Below are positions 9,357 to 47,121 of a DNA stretch of 64,000 nucleotides, piece by piece. Numbering within the stretch: the stretch's first letter is position 1; the number at the start of each line of letters is the position of its first letter. The translations under genes were made by a program, and so were the position numbers. Origin of the DNA: Geosiphon pyriformis uo1 (taxonomy: Eukaryota > Fungi > Glomeromycota); NCBI GenBank assembly GCA_016748015.1, contig JAAOMT010000603.1, positions 353,532 through 417,531 on the forward strand. Reading direction: 5' to 3'. The notes beneath the pieces were generated by a model, which was not told where the DNA came from, made no database searches, and was given only the letters and a program-made list of their open reading frames with translations.

Positions 9357-9530
9357 CTTTGAAATTGAGTAGCGTTGAGAATGAAATCGTGATAAATAAA
9401 TGATCTGAAACATGTAGTACAGAAAGGATCTCACCCATTTTACCTACCATTAGTGATCCCGTTAAGATACAGTTGGTTTTTAATAAATTAGATCAACGGA
9501 ATCTGGGCAATCACCTGACAGAAAAAGAGT

Positions 9531-13067: not shown

Positions 13068-13808
13068 TGTTATGGTTGAAATCCATAATTTTTATTAGTT
13101 ATCACATGTATTAGTCATTGATGTCATATAATTAGCCACTCTATTTTTAAATAGTGATCATTGACCTAATCAATGACCTGACCGTTGACCTGATCATTGA
13201 CCTGATCATTGACCTGATCAATGACCTGATTGTTGATCTAATTATTGACCTGATCATTGACCTAATCGTTGACCTGGTTGTTGACTACTTTCAATAGCTA
13301 TATAAGCAATGAGTCTCTTAGCTGTAGAAAATCATCTCTCAGACAAGAATCAAATAAATAAAAATAACAACTTTCATCTCAATAACTCTCTTATTGCTAA
13401 ATTCCCTTTTTCTACCTTCAAGTATCTGAACATCTTAAGATAAAAGATTACTTGTTGGTCTTTTTTCTGTTTGAATAATTGTAATATTTGAAGACTATTT
13501 GTATAAACATAACTGAAAAACACAAGTTGATACCTAATATTGAATTCTAAGAGCGCCGATGTGAAGGCATAGAATTAATACCAGTGGTGATCAATTGTTG
13601 ACAGTACGGACTATCTCTCTACTTTCAGATTCCCTTGTTACCTTTTGAAAAGAATAGTGACTGAGATATTTTATGAGACTGATCTCGCACATTGAATCCA
13701 TACTCATTTAATTTGCTCATTAAAGTTGAATCTTCTTTGATTATTTCTATCATCCTACAATCTTGTTCTCCTTTGCTATCCATTAGCTTGTTACTCCAAC
13801 CTGTAACA
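13068..13808 (+). repeat. 5' LTR of Gypsy-1 (741 bp)
   Basis: TGTTA..TAACA termini; direct repeat of 21024-21668; TATATAA near 13300. Confidence 0.95.
13161..13281 (+). repeat. 12-bp tandem array (consensus TGACCTGATCAT, 10 units) in the U3 region of LTR family 1
   Basis: Direct reading; lies immediately upstream of the LTR TATA-like box. Confidence 0.9.
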
Positions 13809-13814
13809 TGAAAG

Positions 13815-13831
13815 TGGTGCTCTCTGTGAGG
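13815..13831 (+). promoter_or_regulatory. Primer-binding-site candidate of Gypsy-1
   Basis: TGGTGCTCTCTGTGAGG, 6 nt after the 5' LTR; begins with TGG (complement of tRNA CCA). tRNA identity not determined. Confidence 0.65.
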
Positions 13832-13860
13832 TTGTTAAAATTCACTTATTCCCTTATTGT

Positions 13861-15417
13861 ATGGGTGATTACTCATATCTGCCACAGCAATCAGAAGAAC
13901 ACTTTGCAGCACACAACAGAAATGACCTAGATTTTATTGAACTTAATCTTCTGCCTTTCTACTTGATCTGCTTTCTCATTGAAGAACAATTTAGCAGACA
14001 ATTCCAAGACTTTTGGAACTGGTTCCTGAATGAGCATTCACCTGAAACCTACACAACTTATACAACCTATTACTTTGATTAAGCTTATTTTGAAGACAAC
14101 TTTGAAGAAAGAAACAACAGTATCAATTAGCTTTTATATTTTACAACCTTTGAACAACAGCCCCCTGATTTTGAATATCTGAATCATCAAATCCACATTT
14201 GGATTGCTGCCCATCAATCAACAGTAACTTCCCTTAAAACAGAAAAAGAAAGCTACCAAACAGCTTCTATTTTTGATCTCTTTTTAAGTGAATCAGAGCA
14301 CTCCACACAAACAATAACTTCTGAACCAATGGCCCAAGATCCAATGCAAATAAACATCCTGGCCACCCTCCAAAGCATACAAACTGCTTTGGGACAAAGA
14401 AACAACACCCCACTACTCCTATTCAGAGGTAATGCCTAAGATCTAATTGAATGGTTGGACGATTTTGAAAGAGCAGTTACTACAAACCAGTATGATGATA
14501 AATACAAGTTCTAAATCATTGGTGGCTATCTCCAAGGCTCCTCTGCTACCTGGTTTTCACAAGAAACCAATGCTGGTGCTCAACAAAAAATTGTTAGATA
14601 GACTTCAGCAAATATTGGAGAAAACAATACCTCTTTCACTACCCAGTTTGAAAACAAATTCAGAACCCCTATCTTAATATCCAAATGGCATATGGAATTA
14701 GAAAGAAGAACCCAAGATCCTGGTGAAATTGTGACCGAATATGCCAAAGCAATCAGAAAACTCATCAAGCGTGTAGGCTCTAGTAGAAACTGGACTGAAG
14801 AGCAAAAGATCTACTCCTTCACAAAAAGATTGAGAACTGATTTATCATATGCTCTTTGGCCTCTCTTGGCTTTAAAAGATAATCCCACTATGGATATGGC
14901 TATTAAACTCGCCCAAAGAATTGAAGACAATCAAAGAATGCATTTGAGATCCACACTTCCAGTTTTTGCTCCTGCTTCTGTTATGGTTCTTACTCTTCAA
15001 ATGGCTGCTACTTCTTTTGCTGCCCAGACACAAGATCCAAATAAACAATTAATAGATAAACTTACAGCAAATTTTGCTCGGCTATTAGAACCATTAGCCC
15101 AAGCAGTCAAAGATAACCAGCAATCACAAAAACCCAGATTTGAAAACCATTTTAATCAGCCCCAGCAATCTCCTTACCAAAGACAACAAAATCGTGGCCC
15201 TTCTGTGTGTTATAGATGTGGATTAACTGGACATTTCTCCAGAAATTACAACAATCTTCTACTGCCTCCTCCAGCTCCCAGAAACAATGACAACCAAAAC
15301 AACAGACTCAACAACAACAATAATGTCTCCAATCAAAAACCCAATCATGCCAACATCAATTTCTTTAGAGAGAATTCCCTAGTTGAAGCCACTGTTTATC
15401 AGTCTTTAAACTGGTAG
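13861..15417 (+). pseudogene. gag: Gypsy-1 gag (N-terminal extension, capsid, degenerate CCHC knuckle)
   Basis: One frame from the ATG at 13861 with several C>T/G>A stops; FRGNA.DLIEWLDDFE, RTQDPGEIVTEY, CYRCGLTGHFSRNY. Confidence 0.85.
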
Positions 15418-15442
15418 GCACACCTCCAAAGAGTGAGAGTGC
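15405..15442 (+). promoter_or_regulatory. Putative -1 programmed ribosomal frameshift signal (U_UUA_AAC plus downstream stem-loop)
   Basis: Heptamer T TTA AAC at 15405-15411 is phased correctly in the gag frame, and the -1 frame is the pol frame. A 6-nt spacer containing the gag stop is followed by a GCAC..CTC-CAAA-GAG..GTGC hairpin. Confidence 0.65.
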
Positions 15443-16223
15443 AAGCCAACCAGAAGAAAACTTTTTTTATGCTTTTAACTTAACTGATGATGACCATGAC
15501 ATGAATGAACTAGCAATCAACACCTCAGAACCAACCAGAAAGAAGAAAAAAGCCAAGGTTGATTTTGTTTTAGACCCCAACAAAGTCTCAACTTTTGCCA
15601 CTGATAACAATGAGCCACCAAAGACTAAAGTTTTTAAGAATCCTTCAAAGTTGAAACCTCCAGAAATTGTACAAAAATCTGAACCCTATTTCATTGTCAA
15701 AGATCTCATGGAAACTCCAGCACATATTACCTTTGGCCAGTTAATGACCCACCCACAGTTCAGAAAGGATCTTTGCAAATCCTTGATTCCAAAAAAAAAG
15801 ACACCAAAAACCAACAAGCACCCTCGCCAAGCTGGACTTGCTGACAACAGCAATGTTATCTCTCTAATTTGTAAAACCCAAGTGGCTGGATACTTCATTG
15901 ACTTAATTCTGGACAGTGGATCATCTGTTAGTGTCATTGCCAAACACTTCTTGGAAGCAATTGGTAGAAAGATTGATGAATCTTCCACCAGACTAATGAC
16001 CAATGTACATGGTGACAAAAAGAAAAGACTGGGTATTGCCAAAGCTGTTCCTGTCCGCATCAATGGAATCAGCATTAAAACTGACATAAAAGTTTCTGAA
16101 GCCAAAGAATACACCATCATTGTTGGCAATAAATGGCTCAAGAAAGCAAAAGCTTTGCTTGATTATGAATTTTGTGAATTAACTATCAGATGTGGTAAGA
16201 AACCCATTGTGGTTAAGTGTTGC

Positions 16224-17096
16224 TGTTACAGGATGGTTTTCTTGTTATATTTAATTGCCGATATCTTGTTTTAATTGCAATCAGTCTTTCATGAGTTCCT
16301 CAATTCTATTTGTGTGATAATGTCACTGTTATACTGAAGGCTTTCTTTTTAATGTTATGATGTAAGTTATTCTTCAATTCCTGATTGTTGTGTGTGTTTA
16401 TGTACTCCTTCTCAGAGGCTGAACTGAAATCTATCCACTGTTTGGGGTCTTCTCTGAGGCTATTTTTGCAATTGTCTGATGTGTTTCTCTAATCTAAAAA
16501 CACTAAAGGTTAATGGCCTTTAGCACTTTTCCTAATTCTTACAATAAAACTTTTATCAATTAGTAACAACATGAATAATCTTAATCAAGGATTATTTTTC
16601 CAAGGAATTCAGTTGATGAATGATAGTTTCATTCAATAAATAATACAAGTAAGTTTCTTAATACTTTAGGTTGTGATAATTCAGTTTTAAATATTTTTTT
16701 CATTTCTTTTTGATTTAAAGGTTTCTTGGGATATTTAATTTGAAAGTATGATTTAAAGTAGAGTTTGTTAGATAAAATTGGATCTATTGCTTGATAAATT
16801 ATGATTTTTATTACTTGATTGTTTTTTCCCAATATTAAAGCTACTGTATATATACATGTTTGTAGTTCTACGAGAAAACACATTGTAATACTTTCTTTTT
16901 GATATTTCAACCTGGTGTTTGCTGCTATCACCAGTTGATGTTGGCTGCTATTGTGAACTGGTGCTTGCCACTATTGCGAGATGGTGTTTGCTACTATGTT
17001 AATTATTATCTTTCTAAGATTATTACTGCACTATATTATGATTGAATAGTTTGTATTATTTTTATGATTCTTTTGCTAAATTCTTAAACTGTAACA
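16224..17096. mobile_element. Solo LTR of a third family (873 bp) inserted into Gypsy-1 pol
   Basis: Termini TGTTACAG...CTGTAACA; TSD TTGC (16220-16223 / 17097-17100). Removing it restores the pol frame (KPIVVKCC|HWTTSP). Confidence 0.85.
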
Positions 17097-19042
17097 TTGC
17101 CATTGGACAACTTCCCCAGTACCCAAACAAAACCAAGAAGAAAAACAATCAAATGAATCAGATAATGAAGAGAACAATGAAAAAGAAGAACAAAAAGAGC
17201 AAGAAGAAACTGCTGAACTCGCCTATATTACCTTTACTAGCAATAGCAAACCACTGGACAATGTTAAAGCAGACAAAAAAGGAATCATTGTAAATGGCAA
17301 GCTGATCTGCTGGCCTTATTATGATATTCTTAGAAGAACCTTTGAAAAAAAACCTGGCAAAAAAACCAAATACAGTTTATGATGGCATGGTCCTTGTGTC
17401 CAGTGTTGGTGCAACAAACTCTTGTATTCTCCAAGTGATGAATGCAAATCATGTCTGATCTATTACAGAGATTGGGAACCAATCAGTTTGATATCCAGAG
17501 AAGAATTAAAAGAAGTACAGAAGTCCTTTGAAAATGAACCACCTAAGATCCAATCACTGGTTATAGAACAAAAAGAACCCTCCCCAGAAGAAAGAAAAAT
17601 AGACATTGAAAATTTGCTGGCTAGAAATAGCCCAGTTATCTCCAAAGAAGATGATACCTCTGGACATACCCATGTGATACAACACACTATCACCACCAGA
17701 GAAACCCAATCCATCTATTTGAAGTCTTATCAATCCAATTAGCACAATAATGAGTTTATCAAAAAAGAGATAAACCAAATAAAAGAACTTAAATTCATAC
17801 AAAAAACCAAGAGTAAATGAGCTTTCCCAGTTGTAGTAATATCCAAGAAAGATGGAACACTACGCTTTTGTGTCAACTACTGCCAATTAAATGCCATTAC
17901 TAAAAGAGACATGTACCCACTTCCCAAGATTGATGCAATGTTAGACCAATTCAAAGATGCTGCTTTCTTCTTAACCATTGACTTAACTGCTAGATTTTGG
18001 CAAGTAGAGATGGATCCAGAAAGCAGAAAGAAAACTGCCTTTATCATCAAGTATGGCATCTATGAATTCACAGTCATGTCTTTTGGTTTCACCAATGCCC
18101 CTCCCACCTTTCAACGCTTAATAGATAAAGTATTTGAATCAGTCAAGGAAAACTTTGTTCTAGTCTATTTGGATAACATAATGGTATACTCAAAAATCTG
18201 GGATGAACACCTGGAACATTTGCAAAAGATTTTTGACCTCCTCAAAAATGCTGGCCTCAAGATCAACCCAATCAAATCTTTCTTTAGAAAACAATCCACC
18301 CAGTTCCTTGGTTATTTTATCACAAAAGATGGAATCTTTCCTGACTCAGCCAAAATTGAAAAAGTCCAAAACATCAAACAACCAATGAACATTTATAAAC
18401 TATACTCTTTTCTTGGTTTGGCCTCTTATTATCACAAATTTATTAAGGATTTCTCCAAAATCGTCTCTTTTCTCAATCAGCTACTCAAGAAAAATGTCAA
18501 TTACTATTGGGGAACACATCAGCAAAAAGCCTTTAAAACTTTAAAGGAAAAACTGGTTACAGAACTCATCTTCAAGCAACCTGATCTAGATCAACCCTTT
18601 ATCCTCCACACTAATGCATTTGGCTTTGGACTTGGTATTGTTCTCTCCCAAAAAGATGAAGATGACAAAAAACATGCCATAGCCTATGCCAGTAGAACCC
18701 TTTCCCCAGCAGAACAGAACTATTCAGTCACTGAACAAGAATGCTTAGCAGTAGTATGGTCCACCAGTTACTGGAGTAAGTATCTTCTTGGTGTGAAGTT
18801 TTTGGTAGTAACAGATTACCAAGCTTTGGTTTGGCTGGACAACAAAAAGAGGTTAAAACACAAATGGATAACTTGCTGGATACTTCACTTGGATGAATTT
18901 GACTATGATATTCAACATCGCAAAGGAGCTAATCATCAAAACACTGACACTCTTTCCAGACTTATTATCCAGTAACAGAACAACCCTCTTAAACCAAACC
19001 AACTTAATTATTAGTAATTCCCCCTTTTTGACAAATACAATA

Positions 19043-20356
19043 ATGAACTTGAACAACTACTCTGTCTTAATGGAATTTTTGGGTAAAGGACAATACCCAC
19101 TGAAATACACATGACAACAAAGAAAACATTTGTGCAAACAATTAAATTTCTATTTGATTCACCAAAACCAACTTTATAAAAGAAATAGAAAAGATCCTGA
19201 CCACCCCCAGAAAGTTATCAGATTTGAAGAAAGAGAAATTGTGATCTACAATATGCATACTGATCTATTAGCTGGACACTTTGGAAAAACAAAAACAATT
19301 CAGAAAACTCTAGCTCACTATTATTGGTCTATCTTGGAAAAAGACATTGCTGAATACATCAAAACCTGTAATATCTGCCAAAGAAGAGGAAAACCCAATT
19401 GCAAAAAAGATATCCATCCAATCTCTGTTGGTCAACCCTTTGACAAAATTGGTATAGATGTTGTTGAACTTTTAACAATAACTCCTGATGACAACAGATA
19501 CATTATCACAGCTACCGACTATCTTACAAAGTGGGTAGAAGCAAAAGCCACTTCAGACCAAACAGCAGTCTCAATAGCCAATTTCATTTATAAAGATATT
19601 ATTTGTCATCATGGCTGCTCCAAAAAACTTTTATCTGACAGAGGAAGAGCTTTTCTCAGTACACTTGTTGAAAAACTTTGCAGAAAAATGGGAATATGTC
19701 ACAAACTTTTCTCTCCTTATTACCTCCAAACAAATGGCTTAGTAGAATGTTTCAATAGAACACTATGTGAAACCTTAGCCAAAACCAGCGAAGAAACAAA
19801 CTTATAGGACAAAGTACTGTCTTCATCTTTGTTTGCTTATAGAACTGTGAATCATGACATAACAAGTTATAAACTCTTTTATCTATTCTATGGATGAATA
19901 GCAACTCTACCAATAGAAACTGACATTGAGACAATACCCTTTGAAGAAATAACAATAAGGAATTACAAAGACATTTTGCAAAGAAGACTTGGTACCATTC
20001 TTAACTCATTAGTAGAACCACAGATAATTGCCTTTGAAAAGATAAAACAATTCCAAAAGAAGCTTAAGAAAAAGAAAATATATAAAACACTTTCCTTAAG
20101 TGTTGGTGACTTAGTTTTAGAATACTGTTCAGACAGAAACAATGTCTATGGTAATAAATTCTCTAGCCAGTGAAAAAGACTCTTTATAGTCAACAAAGTT
20201 TTAAACAATGGTTTTTATATCTTACAAGATCAATATGGAACAATCTTCAATGATCGCCCTGTTCATGGCACATGACTCAAGAAATATTACAAAGAACCTG
20301 ATTGGTTACCTGTTGTGGTAATACCGACCCAAATGATCAACAAAAATCAGATATAA
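19043..20356 (+). pseudogene. Gypsy-1 integrase (HHCC, DDE, GPF-like tail; no chromodomain), apparently a separate ORF
   Basis: ATG 19043 MNLNNYSVLMEFL; HTDLLAGHFG..CNIC; IGIDVV; LLSDRG; QTNGLVECFN. Reading frame differs from RT/RH. Confidence 0.85.
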
Positions 20357-20397
20357 ATAAATACATCATTCCAAAAACAGAGGTATCTTCAATCAAC

Positions 20398-21054
20398 ATG
20401 AACAATTATTTCCTAGATCAAAACATTCAAAACGCTTTCTACACTCTCCATGAGTACTGAATCAAAAATTATCCAAATGCTACTCTGACCATTAAAAAAC
20501 AAACCACCATAACTAATAACAATAGAATACATACTGTTATTAGACCAAAGAAAACCACTACCAGAAGAGAAAGAATTGGTAGAAAAATGGATAAGTATTT
20601 GCTAGAAAGCATAACAGCAGCAATACTTACACCTTCCATAACAATTGGAAAAATGATTAAAGAAATCTTGTCTATAGACAAAAACTTGTCATATAGAAGA
20701 CAACTAGAATTTTATGGTTGTCTTGGTGAAATTATAGAAAAAATGAAGCTTATGAAGAAAACAACTTCAGAGATACAAGTGGAAATTTTGGGCATTATAC
20801 GATTGGATGTCCCAAGAGTTTTGACCATTGCTAAAAGAGCCAGAACTCTAATACAAAGATTTGGTCTCTTGGATACAAAGCTTATTTCGCCTTAAGTACT
20901 ATACACTCTATTCACAAAAAACTTCAACAAACTAGTTAGTTTTGAGTTAGACAAAACCCTTCAATTAGAATACCCTATAAATAGCTTGATTTCACCGGAG
21001 CTCAATCTCTTTGAAGAAAATGATGTTATGGTTGAAACCCATAATTTTTATTAG
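20398..21054 (+). pseudogene. Gypsy-1 ORF3 (unknown ~218-aa protein in the env position)
   Basis: ATG 20398 to TAG 21052-21054 in one frame with two premature stops (TGA 20458, TAA 20893), both explainable as single C>T changes. Crosses the PPT into the 3' LTR. Confidence 0.7.
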
Positions 21055-21668
21055 TTATCACATGTATTAGTCACTGATGTCATATAATTAGCCACTCTAT
21101 TTTTAGATAGTGATCATTGACTTAGTCGTTGATCTGGTTGTTGACCACTTTCAATAGCTATATAAGCAATGAGTTTCTTAGTTGTAGAAAATCATCTCTC
21201 AGACAAGAATCAAATAAATAAAAATAACAACTTTCATCTCAATAACTCTTTTATTGCTAAATTTCCTTTTCCTACCTTCAAGTATCTGAACATCTTAGGA
21301 TAAAAGATTACTTGTTGGTCTTTTTTCTGTTTGAATAATTGTAGTATTTGAAGACTATTTGTATAAACATAACTGAAAAACACAAGTTGATACCTGATAT
21401 TGAATTCTAAGAGCACCGATGTGAAGGCATAGAATTAATACCAGTGGTAATCAATTGTTGACAGTATGGACTATCTCTCTACCTTCAGATTCCCTTGTTA
21501 CCTTTTGAAAAAAATAGCAACTGAGATATTTTATGAGATTAATCTTGCACATTAAATTCATACTCATTCAATTAGTTCATTAAAGTTGAATCTTCTTTGA
21601 TTATTTCCATCACCCTACAATCCTGTTCTCTCTTGCTATCTGTTAGCTTGTTATTCCAACCCATAACA
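21024..21668 (+). repeat. 3' LTR of Gypsy-1 (645 bp)
   Basis: Direct repeat of 13068-13808 lacking 8 of the 12-bp units; preceded by purine-rich gaagaaaatga. Confidence 0.95.
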
Positions 21669-24600
21669 ATATTAAACCTTTTCTATTGGTTTTTTTGAAA
21701 ATAAGTAATAAGTTTACTGCTTTTAAGTACAGTCTTAACAGTTTTATAAAACAAGTTGGTAAACTGACTAAAAAATTAGAAGCATTTAGGTCAATAGTTT
21801 TCTAATATAAACTTAAATATTAGCTATTAATAATTTTTTTATTACAAAATTAAGAAACAAATATAGTAATAAGTAAGAGTTTGAGTATAGTTATTAGTAA
21901 TAAAACTGTTGTTCAAGCAAAGATTTTGGATTCATTAATCATCAAAAAATTTAAAAAAAATGAACAATTTATTAAATATAATTATAGATCTGTTGGCCAA
22001 AGTGAATAACAAAAGTTTAAGTTTAGACACTACTTTCTAACAATGACTGATTTAATTTGAAAGATTGTCACATGTAATGTTAAAGTATAAACAATTCTAT
22101 TAAGTAAGAGAATATTATTTGTTGACATAAAAAAATGAACAATTTAATTTCTATTATAACTGAAACAAAATTAAAAGATAAGATTTGTTCATAGATTATA
22201 AACAAGTTTAATAGTGTTTGAATATTTATGTCTAGTTTAAAGTTTTGCTATTTGGGTTTTGGTATTGCAATCATTATAAATATTGATTTAACAAGACATG
22301 TGTACAAGGTTTTAAAGATTACTAGTAGGCTTTTGTCTATTAAGCTGCTTTTCAAGAATAAACTCTCTGTATTAATTTTGGAACTGTATACTAATACTAA
22401 ACTAACAATATGCTTGACTTAAACTGGAAAAATTGATTCACTAATTGTTAAAGTTATAAACAAAACTTTATTTGTGGTTTTGGGAAGTGATTTTAATGAG
22501 AATAGTTTTTATAAATATACTAACTTTAAAAAATGTCTTGATTTAAAACTGGTTAATTTTTTGGCAAAAAGCTTAATTGTAAAAACTTTAACATAAAATA
22601 ATTTTAAGAGTGCTAAAAAAACAATTGATTTTATATTTGTCTTCTTAAATTTGATTAATGCAGTAATTATCATGATATTCTGAATGTTAAAGAGCATTTT
22701 AACATTAATTATTATGTGGTTTTTGTTTCTGTAAATTTGGATGATTTGTTGAATATACATTTAAACTTTTTTTATAAGCTGGCAAATAAAAACTGCTGAA
22801 AGTTTAATTTTAAAAATGCTAATAATACAAAATAAAACAGATTTAAAAATACTACAATTGCCAATATTGCTAGATTTTTTGATAAATTTGCTGTATCTAA
22901 AAAATTTTCAGATATGAATGTAATATAAGATGTTATTTATAAAATAGTAAGTTTATCTGCCAATAAAGTGTTCAAAAAAAATGATTTAAGGATTTTAATG
23001 GTGTTTTTACCAAAAAAATTTCTAAGTTTTATAAATTGGAATTATTGGTATCAAAAATTGCCAAATTTTTACATAATAAGACTGATAATAAATTTAATTC
23101 TCTAATGAGCCACTAGATGTCTTTAAACAGTGACAATACTTTAAATATTTAAGTTTTATTGAACTCTGGTTCTGATTTTAATTGTATAAAATTGTCTCTT
23201 TTTAAAGTAAAAAAATTATATTATACATTTAAACTTGCTAAATCTTTAAAGACTAAAAAGTTACTTATCAAATCTGCTATTAATAAACGAATAAAAAGCT
23301 TTGCTGTCAATAAGAGTTACATAATTAGGAGTATATTAGAACATTCTTTTTAAAAAGTTGTATTAGTTTATTTGGTTGTAATAATAAACTGGTTTTGAGT
23401 CTTGGTGAAGTCAAATCTAAGATTAATACAATTATAGAAGATTGGACAAAAAATAAATTAGTGTCAAATAGTATTCCTAATCTGTGGTATTGTTAATATT
23501 TATTACTAACTTATATTGATAATACTGTTTTTTCCAATGTTATGAGTACTATAAATTATGATAATTTAATACATATAATCAATAATTTGTTTAATAAAAA
23601 GACTATTGGTTTGTCTAATATTACAAATAAGCTTTAAAAATATTGTAATGTTTCAGTTCTTGTTATGTTTCTGGATTTTTTAAACACTTGTTTAGTATGT
23701 AAATCTGTATTTTAATCTTGAAAAAAAGTTAAAATGTCAATAATTCTTAAATCTTATAAGTAGAAAAATGTTTTGATTAATATTAGACTAATTGTTTTAA
23801 TTAAAACTGCTTATAAGATTTTTTCTAAATTTTTTTCTGATAGAATTTCCTTGGTCTCTAATAGATTCAATGTTTTTTATAATGACAACTATTTTGTATT
23901 GAAAAGTACTACTATTTAGTTTTTTATCTTTGTGATTGGTTCAGTAATTAAAGATGCTTTAAAAAAAAATTGTGAATTTTAGCTGGTTTTATAAAATATG
24001 TAAAAAGCATATAACTTTATTAGTTGATATTATTTAAAAAATAGTTTAGTTTAAATTAAAATATATAAACAATTTATTAGATTCTTTGGTAGTATTTATA
24101 ATGATAGGATTAATTAGACCATACTTAATTATAGATTAACTAATAAGTACTAAATATATGATAGTTTGGATTAAAGTAAAGTTTTTTTTCCTCTGTTTTA
24201 AAAATTTTTTTTAATTTTCTTCTATATAAGATCAAAAAACATAAAAATTTGTATAATTATTGTATTAATACTAAGTTTATAGCCAAAACTGACAAAATAA
24301 AAAACCAGAGTAAATTAATTTTATATTTGATGGCTGGTGTTTTTGTTGATAATACAATTTGAGTAGAAAATAGTTAGACTATTACTCAATATATTTTGAA
24401 TATTGCAAGTAAGTTTTTTATTATTAATGATATTTTAATCAACAATAAAAAAACTATAACCATTTTTATCAACTAAAGAGTTAGAAATATTTTATTATTA
24501 ATAAGTAGTTTGCCAATATTTATAGCACAAAGTGGAAAATCTTATAAATATTTTGGTATTTTTTTGTTTTTTAAAAGTTTATCTAAACTTAATTTAAAGA

Positions 24601-27025
24601 AAGCTTATTCAGATGTTAGGTTTTTTGTTAACATAATCTTAAAAAAAGCTATTTTAAATAAACATTTCTTTTATCTAATTTTGGCTGTGTTTTAACCTAT
24701 TATTAGTTATAAGATCCAGTTTAGTTTTGTCTTTAGAAGTGTATACAACAAATGGAATATGCTAATTAAAAAGAGTTTAAGAATAAAAATAGATTTGTTA
24801 AAGGATTTTTTCAATAAAACTCTTTATTATCCATTTTTGTACAAATTTAAATTATTTAAATAAGTGTAAACAGAAAGTAAATTGGCTTCTGTGCTGAGTT
24901 TTTTAAATGCTAATAGAATTTTCAGTTATTTGTTTGATTATAGATCTTTAGATTTGCAAATTTTGAATTGGTTTTCTATTTATCTTTTACAAAATTCTAT
25001 AAAGTTAAAGATTAGTTTAGTTAACTGGTATGATAAAAATTTTATTGGATTATAATGTTTTTTTTACCAATGTTTTGTTTTCTGTATTTCGATTTTCTGA
25101 TAGCACTCCTATGTCTTTTGTTTTGAAAAATATAATGTTTTATAATATTTCTTACTTACTTAAAAGATTTAGTATTGTTTTTGTTGAACAATTGTATAAT
25201 AAAAAAAAGTTAGTTTTTGATTAAAAAAGTTTTTATAATTGGAAGAGACTCAATTTTAAAGGCCCAGTTTTTGTTTAGTTTAAGTTAACATATAATTACT
25301 TAGTTAATTCTACTTCTTGTTTTGCTGTTCAGCCACTTATTAGTAAATCTCAGTTTTTGAATGTTTTTAATATCAGTAATTTTTTTACAGTAAGACAATA
25401 TCTCTTCAATGTTGATTTAAATATTATTAATGTTTATATAAATAGATCTTTAAAGAACTTGAGTATATATAAGATAAAGTGTAGTACAGCTGTATTTTTT
25501 GTTAACCTAGATCTAAGTATTAGTGTTAAAGTTGGTAGTTTGGTGTCTTCTATAATGGCAGAATTACAGACAATTGTTTTGGTCTTAAAGTGTATTCTGA
25601 TTTCTAGTAATGTTATAATGTATTTAAATAGTCAAGCTGTTTTAGATATATATACTACAGAATTGAATATAGTCTTACTCAACTTTTATAATTACTGTTG
25701 ACTTGAAAAATATATTGTTACAAACTTTATTAAATATAAAGCATTTGCTGTTTCCTGGACCAAAGTTAAAAGTTATTCAAGTATTTTGGATAATAAACAT
25801 GTTAACATGCTGGCTAACTTAGCTTTATGTTTAAATTTATCACTTTTTGTTCTTGTCAAAAAGAAATACATTAAGGCTGATAAGATAGTAGTGTCTAAAA
25901 ATATTTGGTATTTTATTTATAATATGTTTAGACCTATTTATTATGCTTATTGAAAAGTTGGTTTAGTTCTAGTGTTATTTATAAAAACATAATTAGGAAC
26001 ATGAATTAGATTTAGACTTTGTTAATTTAATATCTTAATTTATATATGACATTCAGTTTTACAAGTAGATTTACTACTGGTTTGTATTTATACTTTATGA
26101 AAGTTTTGTATTGTTATTTACCAATTGCTGTTTAAAAATGCTTAGATAATAAGAAGTATCCTAGTATATTATGTTTACAATATAGAAAAATTGAGCTTTT
26201 TAATTATTTTTTTACATACATAATAGACTTTGGTATTTGCAAAAAATTACTTAATTTACATCTGGCCCAGTAGAGTTCTGTGTTAAGCTTAAATTTGTTG
26301 TTATTTTGTATTTTATAATTACTTTCTTTGTGTGTTTTTGACAATACTATATATATTGTATTGTGCAAAAGTTTTGTGTTTAGAAAATAGTATTTAAAGA
26401 CTGTTTCTGTTTTTGGCTGTGTTAAAACTACTAACAAAAAAGTTATTGAGTTGGTATAAAATTTGGAAATAACTTATTAAGTTAATATATAGTTGGTAAG
26501 AGCTAAGTATAAAACATTAATAAAAAAAAGTGTTTAATTATACATAATAAGTTTGTGCTTTTTGAGATCTATGGTTCTATATCTTTTGCTTTCTGATGAT
26601 GTTATTAAGTTGCTAAAAATCATAGAGACTTATAATATTAGTTTTGGTTTTCATAAGCTCTGCAGTTTTTTTTTTGGTATTGATTATGTGGTTTTTATTA
26701 AGATAAATTCATAGTGTTGCTTTAATTGGCCTAAGTAATTGATTATATGTAGAAAATACATGATCTGCACTTAATTTAGATTATTTAGTTTGATGTATTG
26801 TGCTAAATAGCATTTGGATTTTACTTATAAAATTATAAAAAAAAATTTATTAAATTTGACTTTTTATGTATTTAACAAAAACATAACCAAATTAATTTTT
26901 TTTTTATTAAAGTTTAATGAGGTCCAAACACTACCTAGTGCTATACATCAAAGAAATGATTTATACTAAGCATAAATTATGCATTTACTACACATGACCA
27001 GCCACTCAGGCCAATCAAAACATCA

Positions 27026-30000
27026 CTATACAGCTATATGAACAGAAACAGAGCCATTTATATCTAAGAAAAATAAACAAGATTTGCAAAAACCAAAACA
27101 AATACCCAATGCCTCAGTGATGCCAAGCAATTTGACCACACCAGTAAAAAACCCTGAAGCCAAACCCGAAACTGTCACAAGAGCTGAATCATCTAGCAAA
27201 ATCAGGTTGGCCTTCTCCATATAGGCTCAATGTTTAATATGGACCAACCAAATATTATCTTTAAAAACAAGACCAAGAGATCTCACAAACTTAACAACCT
27301 CCAAACCAGCAATCTTTGGATTATGAAAGATGGAGACAGCTTCGTGAAACCAATCATTAAACACAAAACCCTTATAAAGGGCCATAGAGACCAAGAAATC
27401 AGAAACACAAGATAATAACAGCTGCAACACACAAAAAGAAGAATGAGATAAACCAAAAAGAGTTTTCCAAGAATTGGCATGAGATTCTAATATATGAGAT
27501 TGAGTAGAATTGTCAACTTTACAAAAGAACACATGATCCAAAGTCTCTATCTCGCCACAATATAAACAAAGCACACTAGGATAACATCTGTTGTAGAGAC
27601 GCTTCTGAACTACAACAGGAAGCCGATAATACAAAGCCTTCATGAAATAAGTACAGATGCCAGCCGAAAGTTTGTTAGTAAAACTGGTGGCCATATGCAA
27701 ATCAGGATGCCAAACCAGTAAAGAATAGGGCCAATCTACCTCAGAAAGCAAGTTATTAGCCAAGAACTTAGAGCCAGAACCAACTTCCCAACATGTGTGA
27801 CAAATGGAGTGATAAATATCGTGAACAAAATGTCTGGAATTTCCAGAAACTACACTATTATCAGCAACTATATAATGTTTATTCAAGTGAGAAATAAGAC
27901 ATCAACCAGAAAGAGAAGCAGCACCAGCAATCAAGTTAGCATGCTCATTTTCAGAAATGCCAGAGTGATCTTTAATCTTGTGCCAACTGACACTCAAGTT
28001 TTTACATCTAACAACATTAGCAATATGATGGCGCTCCACCCAACACTGATTGTGAAAATCTGGACACACAAGACCCAATTCAGACTTGCATGCATCCAAA
28101 GCAGATTGACTATCTGAAAACAACTGAACAGAACTAGATAGGAGAATACACTTCAAGGCCAATGCAATAGCCTGCAATTTTGCCAGAGTAGATGACATCA
28201 AACCTAAAACACCAATACCAAGACCTAAACCTATGTCCTCAAAAAAGGCAGCAGTATCAGCCTTACAGCTTGTTGTGCCTAAATCCTTCAGAGATCCATC
28301 TGTGTATACAGATATATTACTCAATCCAACATGAGGAAGACAGTCACAAATAGAAACAAAATCACCAAAATCAAGGATGTTCAGAGAAACAGCACCATCC
28401 AAAGCCAGAGAACCAGCAGAGGGAGAATTCACACTATTAAGAAAAGCCATAGCATGCTTAAACCACTCAGGAATGGAACCACGGAGGTCGAGTCTTTTCT
28501 ACTGCTTGAAGGTGTACCAATCAAATACAGTACCATGATAATTACAAAGTTGGTCCACAAAAGCAACACCAAACCTCCAGAGAGAAGAGAGAGACCTAAA
28601 AAACATCAACTCATCCAGAACAGAAGACATGAGAATGCTACTGCAGGACCAAAAAGAGTTGGCCAAAGAGCTACTCAAGAACAAATTGCAATCGAGAAGA
28701 ATACAGACCATGTCCACCAAAAAGTTACTAGAAGCATTGACATAAACATGAACAGAAGAACTCAATAAATGAACAGGCACCAACACCAGACTTGTAAATC
28801 ATGAGACCTATGAGCAAACAGGTGACCCAAAATTCCATCAGAGTTCACAAAACTAACAAGAGAGACAATCTTGCACTCAGACTGAACTTGTGAAAAAGAT
28901 TTTAAACCATAAAAAGAAGGATGGTGAAGCATATTATTAGGAAAATTAAGTAAGAGACCAGACTTAAGCTTCAAGCTCTTACAAATCAGAGCATTCCATT
29001 TGTTACAGATGCTGACCAGAATAAAACTAAATTGTGTTCGATAACTGACTATGGGTTGGAGAACTGCCAACACCAAGTACAAGAATTGTTTATCAGAGAC
29101 AGCATTTTTTAGAACCAAATTGACAAAAAATCAAACATCTGAATGTGCTTTAGCTAAACTAGGTTTCAAAAGACCCTCAGTTGAAAGAAAAATACTCAGA
29201 TACCAATGAGACTCCCCCTTTTTGGCAATAGAGATGAGTGAACCACTGATAGAAAGGGAAGAACTACTGAACCTGCTATTGATTGGAATGGCCACTGTTT
29301 TGTCATTATTAATTGAGATATTATTAACCCAAAAAAATTTACTGGCAACATTAAGAATATGTTGAGTAGTAGTTTGACTGCTACCAACCCAAATTGTGTC
29401 ATTGACAAAAGCACCAGCAGCAAAAAAAGAAAAGAGTCCAGCCTAAGATTTAGGGTGACCACTTCTGGAAACAAAATGAGAGTTTAACCTATATCCACAT
29501 ATACTTTCTTGTTGCTTGACCTTACACAACAGAGGATTATAAAATATGCACCACAGAAGTGGGAAGAAAACTTTCCTCTGATCCAAACCATCATAAACAT
29601 AATAATCATCAGTTAAACCAAAATCTGTCATAACTTGGTTGGTACGATCTCTGTGAATATTACCAAAAAATTGAATGAATTTGCTACACATCTTAATCCT
29701 AATCAAACTTTTTTCAAGATGCTCCCAGCTGACTGAATCATAAGCCTTTTGCATGTCCTGCAAAACCAGCCAGAGTTTCCAGTCTTTTTCCAAGGCATTT
29801 TCAATCACTGAACCAATAACAAAAATGAGAGACTGAGTAGTTGTACCCTTCAAAACCAAAAAATTGTCCCCATGAAGAACATTAAAAGTACTGCAGGCTG
29901 TGGAAATCCTATCAGAGAGAATCTTGGAAAGAATTTTGTGAGCTGTTTTAATTAAAGCAATAGGACATGTATTTGTTAAAACACTTTCCCACTCATAAGG

Positions 30001-33506: not shown

Positions 33507-34350
33507 AACAGCAATAATAGGGCCAACAGTGGCCTCATAATCGAAAAACAGTTTAGATTTATTGTACTGAATAATAAAAAACTTCTTTCGAAAAAACTTT
33601 TGACTCTTTTTTGGGAATTTTGGATGAAGAAGAGAAAGAAGTTTTTTTGTAAATTAATAAATTAAAAAATTAACTTAATTAAATATGTTAATTTTAATAT
33701 TTAAAATTTCAAAACACCAACTTATTATTAATACAAAAAATTAAAATATGTAAATAGTTTATTGAATTTTTTAAGCATATTTACAATAATTGTATTAATA
33801 AAATAATAATTAATTTTGGTTTAATAACTATATTATATATAATAATTTAGATCAAAAAAAGTTTTTTTTTTACTTTTTTTACAATTTTTTTTGTAAAATC
33901 AAAAAATATTAATTAAATTACAAAATTGAATTCAAATTTGTTTTTAAAATAAACAAAGTTAAAATTTAAAATAAAATATCTTTATATTTGACTATTAAAG
34001 TTTTTATTGATAATATTATTTGAATTAAAAATAAACAGATTTTTATTTAATAAATTTTAAATATAATAAATAAATTTTTTTTCTTAATAATATCTTAATT
34101 AATATTAAAAAAATAATGATTATTTTAATTAATTATTAATAATTTGTTGGTTTTAATTATAAAAAAGAAAAAATTTTATTTATTATTTAATATTTATTTG
34201 TTTACAAAGAATTTGTTTAAGTTAAACTTGGCCAAAATATATATTAATATTTAGTTTTTTTTAATATAATATTTAAAAATTTACTTAAATTATTAAAAAA
34301 AAAACTCTTTCTTTTATTAATCTCCTAGTCATAGTGAAAGCATTGAGTAG

Positions 34351-37232: not shown

Positions 37233-38203
37233 TGTTACTGGAGGTTTTTGGTCTCTTTTTTTGAATGTTGTTAATGTCTGTTGGTTGTAAATTCACGTTT
37301 TCTAGAAGTAGTTGAACCTCCAATAACTGAATTTATCTTCAAATTATCTCTTATAATTTGAACTGCTGGGCTTATAAGTGGAATGGCCAATTCCGTGCCA
37401 GTTACTTTGTATAATTACGTTGTAGTAAATGTCAATTCTTTCCCAGAAATTGCTCATCTGGGAGTTCACTAAAATGTGTAGTTACTTTGCTGTGAAAGTT
37501 AACTCTTCTATAGGAATCTCGTCTGTAGGCTACCCTAATAATTGTAATAAGAAAATAAAAGAAAAATAAAAGAAATGTAAAAGAAATAGAATTTTGTCAA
37601 GAGAAACGTTTTCTATCCAGGCCTGGAGTTACTAACAGTTTATTGAAATTGGTAGCTAATCAATTTCAAAACGTTAGTTGTGTTGAGGGAATTTCAAGTG
37701 TAATAATTTAAGAATTTGGTTTTCGAATATTTAATTTTTATTTAATTTTTGAAAAAAAAATAATTTGTTCTAATTAAGATATCTAGAGTAAGATACTATG
37801 GTAAGATATGGGAAGGATATATTTTTTTAAAAAGAGAAGCTCTTCTTTTATACAACTTGTTGTAGTACTAGTCTTTGAACTTGTACTTTTCTCTTTGCTA
37901 CAATTTGGGTGAACTAAAAATACATTTCAGCAAATTTACAAGTTATTTTACTGAACTATTGATTATTTCGGCGAATTTTCATTAATTTCGGCGAATTTTG
38001 ACTATGTTAAATGGTTCAGAGTATTGTGTAATTTGATCATCTTAATTTCTAGAGTACAAATCGGATTATTGATTGAGTAATGATTTTTGATAATTTGGCT
38101 AATTTAATAAGTGATAATCGAAATGATAATAATATGCTAATTAATAATAGGAATTATGAAGATAATTTCATGCTAATTAATAGCTAAAATTCCACTGGTA
38201 ACA
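37233..38203 (-). repeat. 3' LTR of Gypsy-2 (971 bp)
   Basis: Direct repeat of 46154-47121; adjacent PPT GAGGAGAAGA on the minus strand (~38206-38216). Confidence 0.95.
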
Positions 38204-38891
38204 TAATCTTCTCCTCAAGACTGAGCTCCGTTGAAGTCCAAGCACTATCTGTAATATTAAGATAGTGGTCCAAGATAATTGAGGTAATCTGGTCTGAAAA
38301 TTGTTGAAATTTCAGTTCTGTGAGCTTTCCAATGTATTGAATCTTCATTGGATGGAATATTGGGTTTTGTAGGACGTTTTCACAAGTGTTAAATAAATTA
38401 TAGAGTCTAAATGCTGCTCTAAGTTTGTAGCGGGTGTTTGTTGGTCCAGCTGCTGTTTTGAATTCATTGTGAATTTGTTTTTGTATAGCCTCAGGAGTAA
38501 TGTTGGTTGCTTCAAGCTCCAGTTTTCGTTCATAAAGTGTTTTTCTAATATAAAAATATCTATATATAAGGGTATATTTATTGTTTTGTTTATTGAGGAA
38601 TAGTAGAAGTTTTTGTTGTATTGTAGCATTTGGTGAAATGTCAATAGGGGCAATTAAAAGGTTTTCTTTTGGTGCTTGCTTCAAAAGTTCTGGTAACCTA
38701 TTTCCCAAATAACTTTTTGTTTTTCTTCTATAAGAGTAATAGTTTTGAGAATTATTTACTATTTGGGCTATGGTTTTTTTTTGCATGTAATTAATTTAAC
38801 TTCCATTAATTGTTATGGATAGATCAGGAAGTGTTTTTAAGGCTAATATTAGTTTTTGAGATATTTGTTGAATATTTTGGAAAAAAATCAT
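38184..38891 (-). pseudogene. Gypsy-2 ORF3 (unknown ~235-aa protein in the env position)
   Basis: ORF-track 38184-38786 extends upstream in frame to an ATG at 38891 through one TAA (38798-38796). Ends 20 nt inside the 3' LTR. Confidence 0.7.
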
Positions 38892-39041: not shown

Positions 39042-40426
39042 TTAAGTGTTCAAGTTTGGTTGTTGTTCTATTATAATTATTGGTTCTAAATTTCGGGGAA
39101 TATCTTCAAAATTAATTAAAGAGCAATGTGTACCAATTTGTAGAATTAATGGTTCAAGATTGTTTTTGGAATGATAGTGTTTCAATCTATCTCTATGTGC
39201 AACTTTTGCTAGTACTTTGTTATTCAGTCTTAACTTGTATAATCTATTGTCTAAAATTTCGTGAATATAAAATGATCTATCCCATTTGTTTTCAAATTTT
39301 CCACTCCATTGTTTTTCAGTCTTAGTTCTGTGTAATAGAACTTTATTTTCAACTTTAAATTTATTGGTAATAGATGGTAATTTGTTGTCATGTCTTTCTT
39401 TTTGTTAAGCTTAGGAATGTTCAATATGAGTTGCTACTATCCTTCTTTTTCCTTCCAGTGTACTAAAAAGAGTGTAAGCTCTTCTTTGGAGTGTTTCTTG
39501 AAAGTTTTTTTATTGATTGGTTGCACTGGGTATGTTTCTACTGTGAAATTAATTGGTAATGTTGCTGTTTTTCCATAAGTAAGATCAAATAGTATGTGTT
39601 TCATAGTATTTTGTTTTAGTGTTCTGTATGCTAGTAACACTGATGAAATAAAGATATCCCATTTCTGCTCAAAATCTGTTAAGACTTTGGCTAAAGATTC
39701 ACACAATGTTCTGTTGAAACGTTCTACAAGTCCATTTGTTTGAGGATAATAAGGTGATGATAGAGGTTTTTTGATATTGAATCATTCACAAATTTCTTGT
39801 ATCAAGTTGTTCACAAAATGTGTTCCTTGATTAGATAAAAGTTCAATTGGACATCCATGTTTACAAATAATGTCTTCATAGATGAAATTTGCTACTGATT
39901 TTGCATCTGCTCTTTGGATGGCTCTAGCTTTAGGCCATTTGGTGAGATAATCTACTGCAACTGCAATATAATGGTTTCTTTGGGTTGTGATAGATAATGG
40001 TTTAACTAAATTAATTCCAACTCTGTCAAAAGGCTGCTCAACTTTGATTGGATTTAAAGGTTTTGTGGAGCAAGTCCCTCTCCTTCTTTGACAACTATCA
40101 CAAAATTCTATATATTGTCAAATGTCTTTTTGCATGTGAGGCCAAAAATAATGTTCAAGAGTTCTTTGAATTGTTCCATCTCTTTTCAAGTGTGCTGAAG
40201 ATGGGTCTGTGTGTATGTTGTATAAAATTGTTTCTTTTTTATTCTCTTGTACTAATCTGAGTAGTTGGTTTGGGTTTCTGTGATTTTTATAATAGATTTT
40301 GTTGTGGTGTATGAAATATTGTTTTGATTGATGTTGTAAACAATGTTTTTCACTTGGAGACCAATTTTCTGGCATGGTAAGGGTCTCCAAATAGTTTTTA
40401 AGATTGCTGTAGTTTCTGGAATCTAT
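39042..40426 (-). pseudogene. Gypsy-2 integrase, apparently a separate ORF
   Basis: (M>I)DSRNYSNLKNYL; HTDPSSAH..CDSC; AVDYLTKWPKA; QTNGLVERFN; LLAYRT. No chromodomain seen. Confidence 0.85.
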
Positions 40427-46135: not shown

Positions 46136-46151
46136 CTGTGGGAGAGCACCA
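46136..46151 (-). promoter_or_regulatory. Primer-binding-site candidate of Gypsy-2
   Basis: TGGTGCTCTCCCACAG, 2 nt after the 5' LTR; first 10 nt identical to the Gypsy-1 PBS. Confidence 0.65.
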
Positions 46152-46153
46152 AA

Positions 46154-47121
46154 TGTTACCAGAGGTTTTTGGTCTCTTTTCTTGAATGTTGTTAATGTCT
46201 GTTGGTTGTAAATTCACGTTTTCTAGAAGTAGTTGAACCTCCAATAACTGAATTTATCTTCAAATTATCTCTTATAATTTAAACTGCTGGGCTTATAAGT
46301 GGAATGGCCAATTCCGTGCCAGTTACTTTGTATAGTTACGTTGTAGTAAATGTCAACTCTTTCCCAGGAATTGCTTGTCTGGAAGCTCACTAAAATGTGT
46401 AGTTACTTTGCTGTGAAAGTCAACTCTTCTATAGGAATCTCGTCAGGCTACTCTAATAATTGTAATAAGAAAATAAAAGAAAAATAAAAGAAATGTAAAA
46501 GAAATAGAATTTTGTCAAGAGAAACGTTTTCTATCCAGGCCTGGAGTTACTAACAGTTTATTGAAATTGGTAGCTAATCAATTTCAAAACGTTAGTTGTG
46601 TTGAGGGAATTTCAAGTGTAATAATTTAAGAATTTGGTTTTCGAATATTTAATTTTTATTTAATTTTTGAAAAAAAAATAATTTGTTCTAATTAAGATAT
46701 CTAGAGTAAGATACTATGGTAAGATATGGGAAGGATACATTTTCTTAAAAAGAAAAGCTCTTCTTTTATACAACTTGTTGTAGTACTAGTCTTTGAACTT
46801 GCACTTTTCTCTTTGCTACAATTTGGGTGAACTAAAAATACATTTCGGCGAATTTACAAGTTATTTCACTGAACTATTGATTATTTCGGCGAATTTTCAT
46901 TAATTTCGGCGAATTTTGACTATGTTAAATGGTTCAGAGTATTGTGTAATTTGATCATCTTAATTTCTAGAGTACAAATCGGATTATTGATTGAGTAATG
47001 ATTTTTGATAATTTGGCTAATTTAATAAGTAATAATCGAAATGATAATAATATGCTAATTAATAATAGGAATTATGAAAATAATTTCATGTTAATTAATA
47101 GCTAAAATTCCACTGGTAATA
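46154..47121 (-). repeat. 5' LTR of Gypsy-2 (968 bp)
   Basis: Direct repeat of 37233-38203; differs by roughly two dozen transitions and a 3-bp indel. Confidence 0.95.

What the first reader, a model, noticed from the sequence alone, without database searches (positions are those of the whole stretch)
20398..21054. Gypsy-1 carries a non-env ORF3 homologous to the ORF3 of the unrelated Gypsy-2 (38184-38891)
Seen: two elements with unrelated LTRs each have a 218-235 codon sense ORF after integrase that runs through the PPT and stops 20-30 nt inside the 3' LTR. By-eye matches in the same order (Gypsy-1 / Gypsy-2): DQNIQN / FQNIQQ; YPNATLTIK / LPDLSITIN; RIGRKMDKYL / YLGNRLPELL; FYGCLGEII / RYFYIRKTL; IAKRARTLI / AAFRLYNLF; LYTLFTKNFNKL / IGKLTELKFQQF; SPELNLFEENDVMV / STELSLEEKIMLPV. 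No signal peptide or transmembrane segment, so it is not env. Inference: a conserved accessory gene of a fungal Gypsy lineage, possibly a basic helical nucleic-acid or chromatin-binding factor for targeting or anti-silencing. The function is speculation.
Basis: partly seen in the sequence, partly recalled or inferred. Interest (0 to 1): 0.8.

Follow-up and report, generated by a model that had tools for sequence, protein, structure and literature searches.

The report
Conserved third gene of fungal retrotransposons
Two related jumping genes in this fungal DNA each carry a decayed copy of the same small helical protein gene after their integrase, a gene also kept by related elements in soil samples, and it is likely read from its own internal promoter and predicted to act as a DNA-binding regulator of the element.

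Summary
The homology holds, with corrections. Both ORF3 frames sit between integrase and 3' LTR and end 31 and 20 nt inside it, but neither is open here (2 and 1 in-frame stops). Other Geosiphon pyriformis copies are annotated as open 218 and 221-239 aa proteins. Direct comparison is not significant (HHalign E 0.06-0.3). Through 12 ORF3s found behind related integrases in metagenome contigs it is (E 2e-6, 175 columns; 0 of 40 shuffles). The elements are related, not unrelated: integrases 46% identical, same primer site, 4-bp target duplications. Metagenome relatives show purifying selection, have no membrane segment, and fold as a compact all-helical domain (pLDDT 93) without a match in the fold libraries searched. 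A TATA-like box lies 32-53 nt before the start codon in 9 of 15 elements, suggesting an internal promoter. One helix is basic in 25 of 26 proteins, and a weak likeness to DUF1016_N exists. Best mechanism: a DNA-binding regulator of the element's own LTR (about 40%), untested. The scan noted similar ORF3s on two other genomes.

The parts
13068..13808 (+). Gypsy-1 5' LTR (TG...CA), with a 12-bp tandem array (10 copies) near its start; preceded by target duplication ATAT
13815..13824 (+). Gypsy-1 primer-binding site TGGTGCTCTC, shared with Gypsy-2
   Evidence: role as PBS from its position, established knowledge
19115..20356 (+). Gypsy-1 integrase frame to the pol stop, 4 internal stops; no chromodomain seen by eye
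   Evidence: integrase named from recalled motifs
20352..20357 (+). TATAAA 46 nt before the ORF3 start codon, overlapping the pol stop codon; candidate internal promoter
   Evidence: promoter role inferred
20398..21054 (+). Gypsy-1 ORF3, 218 codons, decayed (stops at codons 21 and 166); conserved helical core about residues 100-181
20997..21023 (+). GGAGCTC motif plus polypurine tract, directly before the 3' LTR, inside ORF3
21024..21668 (+). Gypsy-1 3' LTR, 6.2% different from the 5' LTR (39 of 40 differences are transitions); followed by ATAT
37233..38203 (-). Gypsy-2 3' LTR, 2.5% different from the 5' LTR (24 of 24 transitions); followed by target duplication ATGG
38204..38229 (-). Gypsy-2 GGAGCTC motif plus polypurine tract, inside ORF3
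38184..38891 (-). Gypsy-2 ORF3, 235 codons, one stop at codon 32; no TATAWA within 120 nt upstream in this copy
39042..40350 (-). Gypsy-2 integrase region to the pol stop, with stops and frameshifts (upper bound approximate)
46142..46151 (-). Gypsy-2 primer-binding site TGGTGCTCTC
46154..47121 (-). Gypsy-2 5' LTR, preceded by ATGG

Best explanation
Both elements carry a decayed copy of one homologous, non-envelope third gene between integrase and 3' LTR, which is likely transcribed from its own TATA promoter just behind the pol stop and whose small helical product is predicted to bind DNA and would keep the element's own LTR active. Shown: position, homology through intermediates, purifying selection in metagenome relatives, no membrane segment (about 0.93). 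Predicted by AlphaFold2: a compact all-helical core. Inferred (about 0.7): a short subgenomic mRNA that starts at the internal promoter, uses the ORF3 ATG as first start codon and ends in the 3' LTR, so that the protein is made separately from Gag-Pol and acts in trans. Inferred (about 0.4): the conserved basic helix is a recognition helix, and the protein acts as a transactivator or anti-silencing factor at the LTR or internal promoter, in a host that erodes these elements by C-to-T change. It is probably inherited within the lineage and optional, since sister elements lack it or hold other cargo in the same slot.
For: Homology: a profile of 11-12 metagenome ORF3s, collected by integrase and not by ORF3 similarity, matches the Gypsy-1 family (E 6.5e-4; 2.6e-4) and the diverse Gypsy-2 family (E 1.1e-4; 2.5e-6) in one register. 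Gypsy-1 family against Gypsy-2 plus metagenome set: probability 89.5, E 2e-6, 175 columns; 0 of 40 block shuffles reach it (45.0 against a maximum of 20.3). An HMM of the 12 metagenome ORF3s alone scores 21 of 21 Gypsy-1 and 20 of 20 Gypsy-2 copies above every reversed copy of the same family. Position: of 26 clade loci with at least 200 nt after the integrase match, 12 hold a full ORF3 and 4 a probable cut-off one. Selection: pN 0.25-0.48 against pS 0.65-0.97 in 28 of 28 pairs of 8 short-type ORF3s. Promoter: TATAWA within 120 nt upstream in 12 of 15 elements against a mean of 4.6 in shuffles (0 of 500); 9 of 15 in the -32 to -53 bin and at most 3 in any other bin; purine at -3 in 13 of 15 (P 0.002); a YAG within 40 nt in only 7 of 15, at scattered places. 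DNA binding: the R-x-x-x-x-F helix has net positive charge in 25 of 26 proteins. Weak match to DUF1016_N over the same helices: Pfam E 0.12 for 1 of 12 proteins; HHalign E 0.003, 0 of 40 shuffles. A sister element holds a true helix-turn-helix ORF in this slot (L012, HTH_24 E 8.5e-6). CpG observed/expected is 0.13 and 0.23 in the two elements.
Against: Direct Gypsy-1 against Gypsy-2 profiles are not significant (E 0.3, 0.094, 0.056). Gypsy-1 does not match the 8 short-type ORF3s alone (E 0.29), and the narrow Gypsy-2 profile against the metagenome set gives E 0.062. Whole-protein pI is 5.0-9.8, so the family is not basic overall. The DUF1016_N match has probability only 9-11%, is absent for Gypsy-1 (E 0.14) and for the long and short sets on their own (E 0.1, 0.31), and the family was picked from memory; its own DNA-binding role is recalled, not shown here. 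Gypsy-2, L016 and L031 lack a TATAWA, and in Gypsy-1 it overlaps the pol stop codon. The 15 elements are related, so they are not independent, and the bins were drawn after the positions were seen. LTR tandem arrays, the obvious binding targets, also occur in the 4 elements without ORF3. L016 is not CpG-depleted (1.08) yet keeps ORF3. dN/dS was not measured on Geosiphon copies, and the codon alignments were guided by the protein.
Confidence: 0.4

Rival explanations
1. Same gene and homology, but the protein binds the element's RNA and helps its nuclear export, packaging or reverse transcription, as CERV does for Cer1.
For: A basic helix fits RNA as well as DNA. The ORF overlaps a conserved DNA/RNA motif at the polypurine tract. 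CERV is a precedent for a non-env accessory protein of an LTR retrotransposon (PMC10309623, abstract).
Against: CERV comes from a spliced mRNA, whereas no conserved splice acceptor precedes ORF3. Four sister loci have no ORF in this slot, which argues against an essential export step.
Confidence: 0.2
2. ORF3 is an integration-targeting adaptor that joins the integrase complex and reads chromatin or CpG DNA, standing in for a chromodomain.
For: No chromodomain was seen by eye behind either integrase. The 4-bp duplications ATAT and ATGG can be read as decayed CpG-centred sites (idea from note e1-10582392). The protein is small and helical.
Against: It has its own start context and a probable promoter rather than a fusion to integrase. 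It evolves faster than integrase (dN 0.30-0.77 against 0.11-0.50). Target sites of ORF3-less elements were not compared.
Confidence: 0.15
3. ORF3 limits rather than promotes the element: a self-encoded copy-number control or interference factor made from an internal promoter (as recalled for Ty1 p22; no call).
For: Internal-promoter signature; optional presence across the lineage.
Against: Both families are very abundant in the host: 128 and 209 annotated ORF3 relatives. LTR elements cover 41.2% of this genome (PMC11952901, passage).
Confidence: 0.1
4. The two ORF3s are real genes but not homologous; the likeness is convergence of amphipathic helices plus a shared DNA motif at the polypurine tract.
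For: Pairwise and direct profile comparisons are not significant. The C-terminal match is DNA-driven. Profiles are shallow, and no structure of the Gypsy-1 protein was predicted.
Against: Same slot in related elements; a common register through an independently collected set; reversed and shuffled controls fail; the N-terminal helix and strand region also aligns.
Confidence: 0.06

Closest known systems
Additional ORFs (ORF3, aORF) of Ty3/Gypsy elements, e.g. bdelloid ORF3s (PMC5408684, abstract read)
   Same: Third ORF after pol, non-env types exist, and the slot takes varied cargo; some of those lineages also carry dUTPase.
   Different: Those ORF3s are env-like proteins, GDSL esterases or DEDDy exonucleases. 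This one is a small helical protein with no Pfam match at the cut-off, in a fungal lineage.
Retand TRP28 ORFs of plant Gypsy elements (PMC11963269, abstract read)
   Same: Conserved ORF between pol and 3' LTR, of unknown function, proposed to bind DNA and regulate transposition.
   Different: TRP28 ORFs are antisense in a 3-6.5 kb region. This ORF is sense, starts 40-260 nt after the pol stop in most elements (409 nt in L025, where the stop call is unsure) and ends at the polypurine tract. No Pfam family matched at the cut-off.
Foamy virus Tas (PMC4929722, abstract read) and Oikopleura Tor internal env promoter (PMC4402516, abstract read)
   Same: Functional analogy: a 3' gene and an internal promoter; Tas binds and activates the LTR and the internal promoter.
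   Different: No sequence relation was tested or is expected. Tor's internal promoter drives an envelope protein. Neither the promoter nor the binding is shown here.
CERV of C. elegans Cer1 (PMC10309623, abstract read)
   Same: Non-env accessory protein of an LTR retrotransposon acting in trans.
   Different: CERV is made from a spliced mRNA and exports RNA; no conserved splice acceptor precedes this ORF3.
DUF1016_N (PF17761), N-terminal helical domain of YhcG (PMC1189080, passages read)
   Same: Weak profile likeness over the Y/F-x-x-G-x-x-L helix, the next helix and the R-x-x-x-x-F helix.
   Different: Far below the family cut-off (12.9 against 32.8 bits). DUF1016_N is bacterial and fused to a PD-(D/E)XK nuclease; ORF3 stands alone.

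Membership tests
Ty3/Gypsy LTR retrotransposon | Two LTRs, primer site, polypurine tract, target duplication | tested here: met
Ty3/Gypsy LTR retrotransposon | Domain order protease, RT, RNase H, integrase | tested here: met
   read from translations; domains named from recalled motifs, not by a family scan
env (envelope) ORF3 | Signal peptide and transmembrane anchor | tested here: not met
   hydropathy maximum 1.41 over 19 residues in 26 members; no hydrophobic N-terminus (simple scale, no SignalP)
Additional ORF of LTR retrotransposons | Conserved ORF between pol and 3' LTR in several families | tested here: met
   12 full and 4 probable of 26 clade loci with enough sequence, plus both window elements
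Additional ORF of LTR retrotransposons | Purifying selection | tested here: met
   pN below pS in 28 of 28 pairs of metagenome short-type ORF3s; not measured on Geosiphon DNA
Additional ORF of LTR retrotransposons | Expressed as RNA and protein | not testable with these tools
   no RNA holder was listed
Bdelloid enzymatic ORF3 (GDSL, DEDDy) | Pfam match to those enzyme folds | tested here: not met
   no such Pfam match; all-helical core
DUF1016_N (PF17761) | Score above the curated cut-off of 32.8 bits | tested here: not met
   best 12.9 bits, E 0.12, 1 protein
DUF1016_N (PF17761) | Remote homology or shared fold | tested here: inconclusive
   HHalign E 0.003, probability about 10, 0 of 40 shuffles; Gypsy-1 alone E 0.14; no solved DUF1016_N relative found by sequence
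Helix-turn-helix DNA-binding proteins | Structural match to a known HTH domain | tested here: inconclusive
   sigmaF fragment Z 4.5, rmsd 2.3, 57 aligned for the Gypsy-2 model, within background; not listed for the compact model
Tas-like transactivator | Binds and activates LTR or internal promoter | not testable with these tools
   needs binding and reporter assays

The most novel reading that the evidence does not exclude
A fungal Gypsy lineage encodes, from its own internal promoter, a DNA-binding transactivator or anti-silencing protein of a new fold, remotely related to the bacterial DUF1016_N domain: a fungal counterpart of foamy-virus Tas that lets these elements escape host methylation and fill 41% of the Geosiphon genome.
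Probability: 0.2. Interest if true: 0.85.

Novelty: new variant of a known kind. Interest (0 to 1): 0.5.

Why it matters
Fungal Gypsy elements are usually described as gag-pol only (own knowledge). Here a lineage that dominates the Geosiphon genome keeps a third gene with no named family and no matched fold, apparently with its own promoter, in a slot where sister elements carry an HTH or a NUDIX ORF or nothing. If the protein regulates or de-silences its own LTR, it would help explain LTR expansion in methylated Glomeromycotina genomes and give a small, well-folded protein (about 140 aa) to test. It also means that hundreds of 'hypothetical proteins' in the Geosiphon annotation are transposon genes.

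Tried and rejected
No whole genome is held for this window, so copy number, the open fraction of copies and dN/dS among Geosiphon copies were not measured. RNA: no RNA holder was listed, which is no evidence either way. The ESM Atlas gave no answer in 12 tries. Pfam: 0 families for the two window proteins, and only scattered single-member weak hits for 11 metagenome ORF3s. PHROGs: no family recurs across ORF3 subfamilies among 19 proteins. PDB by sequence: 0 matches. Fold searches: Gypsy-2 model, no Foldseek match at E 0.001 in PDB or BFVD and best VIA Z 5.3; compact model, best Z 5.2 and no BFVD match at E 0.001. This does not show that the fold is new. The third protein search was filled by close Geosiphon copies; 145 of 265 hits were not listed. 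Viral contigs gave no relative of P0269. Scans with alignment A5 were not possible. DUF3102, a second recalled candidate, gave 1 match in 151 genomes, too few for a profile; not tested. The 288-aa ORF of L021 looked similar by eye but is not significant (E 0.18), nor is the L012 HTH ORF (E 0.45); the cut-off L043 ORF gives E 0.024. LTR tandem arrays do not separate elements with and without ORF3. The integrase tree leaves the base of the clade open, with long branches for both window copies, so gain or loss order is not settled. A spliced origin was considered and is disfavoured, not excluded. Literature: searches listed no paper describing this ORF; the library lacks most subscription journals, and no supplements were read.

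Full report
1. Observation. Gypsy-1 spans 13068-21668 (+) and Gypsy-2 spans 47121-37233 (-). Each has TG...CA-type LTRs, the primer site TGGTGCTCTC and a 4-bp target duplication. After each integrase lies a sense frame, 20398-21054 and 38891-38184, that crosses the polypurine tract and stops 31 and 20 nt inside the 3' LTR. The decay matches that of pol (4 stops in 414 integrase codons; 11 in 1092), and LTR pairs differ by 6.2% and 2.5%, almost only by transitions. Shuffled DNA gives 17 stops on average, and 0 of 5000 shuffles had as few as observed. The frames are therefore real coding remnants.

2. Host and copies. Protein searches gave 128 relatives of Gypsy-1 ORF3 and 209 of Gypsy-2 ORF3. 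The best 120 of each were listed, and all named ones are Geosiphon pyriformis hypothetical proteins. Twenty of 120 are exactly 218 aa; 26 and 23 of 120 are 221 and 239 aa. The host is very likely G. pyriformis, where LTR elements cover 41.2% of the genome (PMC11952901, passages). A profile search of 1.84 billion representatives gave 35 hits, including two metagenome proteins and four from more distant Geosiphon families.

3. Homology. Directly, the two proteins are not significantly alike: 348 of 1000 shuffles reach the local score and 10 of 1000 the global one. Family profiles give E 0.3, 0.094 and 0.056. To get intermediates without selecting for ORF3 likeness, I scanned metagenome contigs with the two integrases and got 53 loci; 49 were read for downstream frames, and four short matches were left out. 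Among the 43 closest loci (L002-L044), 26 have at least 200 nt after the integrase match. Of these, 12 hold a full ORF3 (11 open, L036 with two stops), 4 a probable cut-off one, 1 an HTH ORF, 2 a NUDIX ORF, 2 another ORF, 4 nothing, and 1 is unclear. The metagenome ORF3 profile matches the Gypsy-1 family (E 6.5e-4) and the diverse Gypsy-2 family (E 1.1e-4) in one register: Y/F-x-x-G-x-x-L, then R-x-x-x-x-F, then T-x-x-x-I-x-x-L...F. The Gypsy-1 family against Gypsy-2 plus metagenome sequences gives probability 89.5 and E 2e-6 over 175 columns, including the N-terminal part; reversed profiles give E 0.12-0.97, and 0 of 40 block shuffles come near. An HMM of the 12 metagenome proteins alone ranks all 21 Gypsy-1 and all 20 Gypsy-2 copies tested above their reversed versions, with 13.9 and 6.6 bits for the window copies. 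Against this: Gypsy-1 does not match the 8 short-type ORF3s alone (E 0.29), and the narrow Gypsy-2 profile gives only E 0.062. The seventh overlies a GGAGCTC motif plus polypurine tract that other elements read in another frame or place after the stop. The elements are relatives, with integrase cores 46% identical. They fall in one clade with the metagenome elements (support 94/90, base unresolved), so inheritance is simpler than capture.

4. Selection and structure. In 28 of 28 pairs of eight short-type ORF3s, pN is 0.25-0.48 while pS is 0.65-0.97; ORF3 evolves faster than integrase. This was not measurable for Geosiphon copies. No member of 26 has a transmembrane or signal-like stretch, pI runs from 5.0 to 9.8, and only the R-x-x-x-x-F helix is consistently basic (25 of 26). 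AlphaFold2 gives a helical core for the Gypsy-2 family (residues about 80-215, block pLDDT mostly 70-90; N-terminus uncertain) and a compact all-helical model for the short type (pLDDT 93, pTM 0.88). The Gypsy-1 protein itself was not folded. No fold library gave a clear match. The motif reminded me of DUF1016_N (recall). Pfam then gave E 0.12 for one protein over those helices, and a profile of 34 bacterial DUF1016_N sequences gave E 0.003, probability about 10, 0 of 40 shuffles, but nothing for Gypsy-1 alone. This is a lead only. PMC1189080 (passages) describes that domain as helical and of unknown structure.

5. Expression. The ORF3 ATG lies 41 nt after the pol stop in Gypsy-1, about 150 nt in Gypsy-2, and 40-263 nt in 12 of 13 metagenome ORF3 loci. 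TATAWA occurs within 120 nt upstream in 12 of 15 elements against 4.6 expected (0 of 500 shuffles). The -3 base is a purine in 13 of 15, and a YAG acceptor is present in only 7 of 15, at scattered places. Nine of 15 boxes fall at -32 to -53, with at most 3 in any other bin. Caveats: the elements are related, the bins were chosen after seeing positions, Gypsy-2 lacks the box, and in Gypsy-1 it overlaps the pol stop. I infer an internal promoter and a short mRNA ending in the 3' LTR. No RNA run was listed to test this.

6. Mechanism. Shown: a conserved, homologous, non-env accessory gene, selected in relatives and optional in the lineage. Inferred: separate expression, hence action in trans. I commit to a DNA-binding regulator of the element's own LTR or internal promoter (about 0.4), on the basis of the conserved basic helix, the weak DUF1016_N likeness, an HTH ORF in the same slot of a sister element, and CpG-depleted elements (0.13, 0.23). 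CG methylation and small RNAs from Gypsy elements are reported in Rhizophagus (bioRxiv 10.1101/2021.03.30.436303, passages). Rivals are RNA export or packaging (0.2), integration targeting (0.15), copy-number control (0.1) and non-homology (0.06). LTR tandem arrays did not separate elements with and without ORF3.

7. Known systems and novelty. Extra ORFs after pol are known: bdelloid ORF3s (PMC5408684, abstract), Retand TRP28 (PMC11963269, abstract) and CERV (PMC10309623, abstract). Internal promoters for 3' genes are known from Tor elements (PMC4402516, abstract; paper found through note e1-9596707) and foamy viruses (PMC4929722, abstract). Searches listed no paper on this ORF; no supplements were read. 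The scan noted similar non-env ORF3s on two other genomes (e1-7557067, e1-7509262). No sequences are given there and look-ups by sequence found nothing, so I could not check that it is the same family. Verdict: a real, unnamed accessory protein family of a fungal Gypsy lineage; new variant of a known kind; interest 0.5.

Noticed in passing
window 42268-42954 (-): Gypsy-2 carries a dUTPase-like segment between protease and RT (motifs recognised from memory; a relative, P0243, has PF00692). None was seen by eye in Gypsy-1.
   Followed up: no
L012:6546-6941; L028:1080-1370; L024:2220-2501: The slot after integrase holds other cargo in sister elements: a helix-turn-helix ORF (L012, Pfam HTH_24) and a NUDIX ORF (L028 by Pfam, E 1.6e-11; L024 by eye). 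L013, L014, L021 and L022 have no ORF there.
   Followed up: partly
window 13064-13067 / 21669-21672 and 47122-47125 / 37229-37232: Both elements have 4-bp target duplications (ATAT, ATGG) that can be read as decayed CpG-centred sites, in line with note e1-10582392.
   Followed up: partly
window 20997-21023, 38204-38229; L012, L016, L030, L031, L036: A GGAGCTC-like DNA motif sits about 20-35 nt before the 3' LTR across the lineage, whatever the ORF and frame; probably a cis signal linked to the polypurine tract.
   Followed up: partly
window 50268-50968 (+), 51703-52462 (-), 34353-35332, 47922-48892: Further LTR copies of the Gypsy-1 and Gypsy-2 families, apparently solo LTRs.
   Followed up: no
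window 16224-17088: A stretch inside Gypsy-1 pol matches 55203-56069 in reverse (77%), probably an insertion of another repeat.
   Followed up: no
window 27227-33653 (-), 22034-24972: Decayed LINE-like elements with endonuclease, RT and RNase H segments (by eye).
   Followed up: no
L021:9200-10063: A 288-aa ORF about 2 kb after the integrase, with 38 near-identical database members and a superficially similar helical motif; not significantly similar to ORF3 (E 0.18).
   Followed up: partly
L004, L010, L025, L027, L040 LTRs; window 13155-13285: LTRs of this lineage often carry 9-12-bp tandem arrays near their start.
   Followed up: partly
window 8364-9443 (-), 9531-10378 (-), 62598-63179 (+): Probable host genes: UDP-glucose 4-epimerase, pyrimidine 5'-nucleotidase-like, and a WD40 protein (recalled motifs, not scanned).
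   Followed up: no
L001; L055: Gypsy elements with a long env-like extension lie in a viral-contig collection and in a bacterial metagenome bin, probably misassigned eukaryotic DNA.
   Followed up: no
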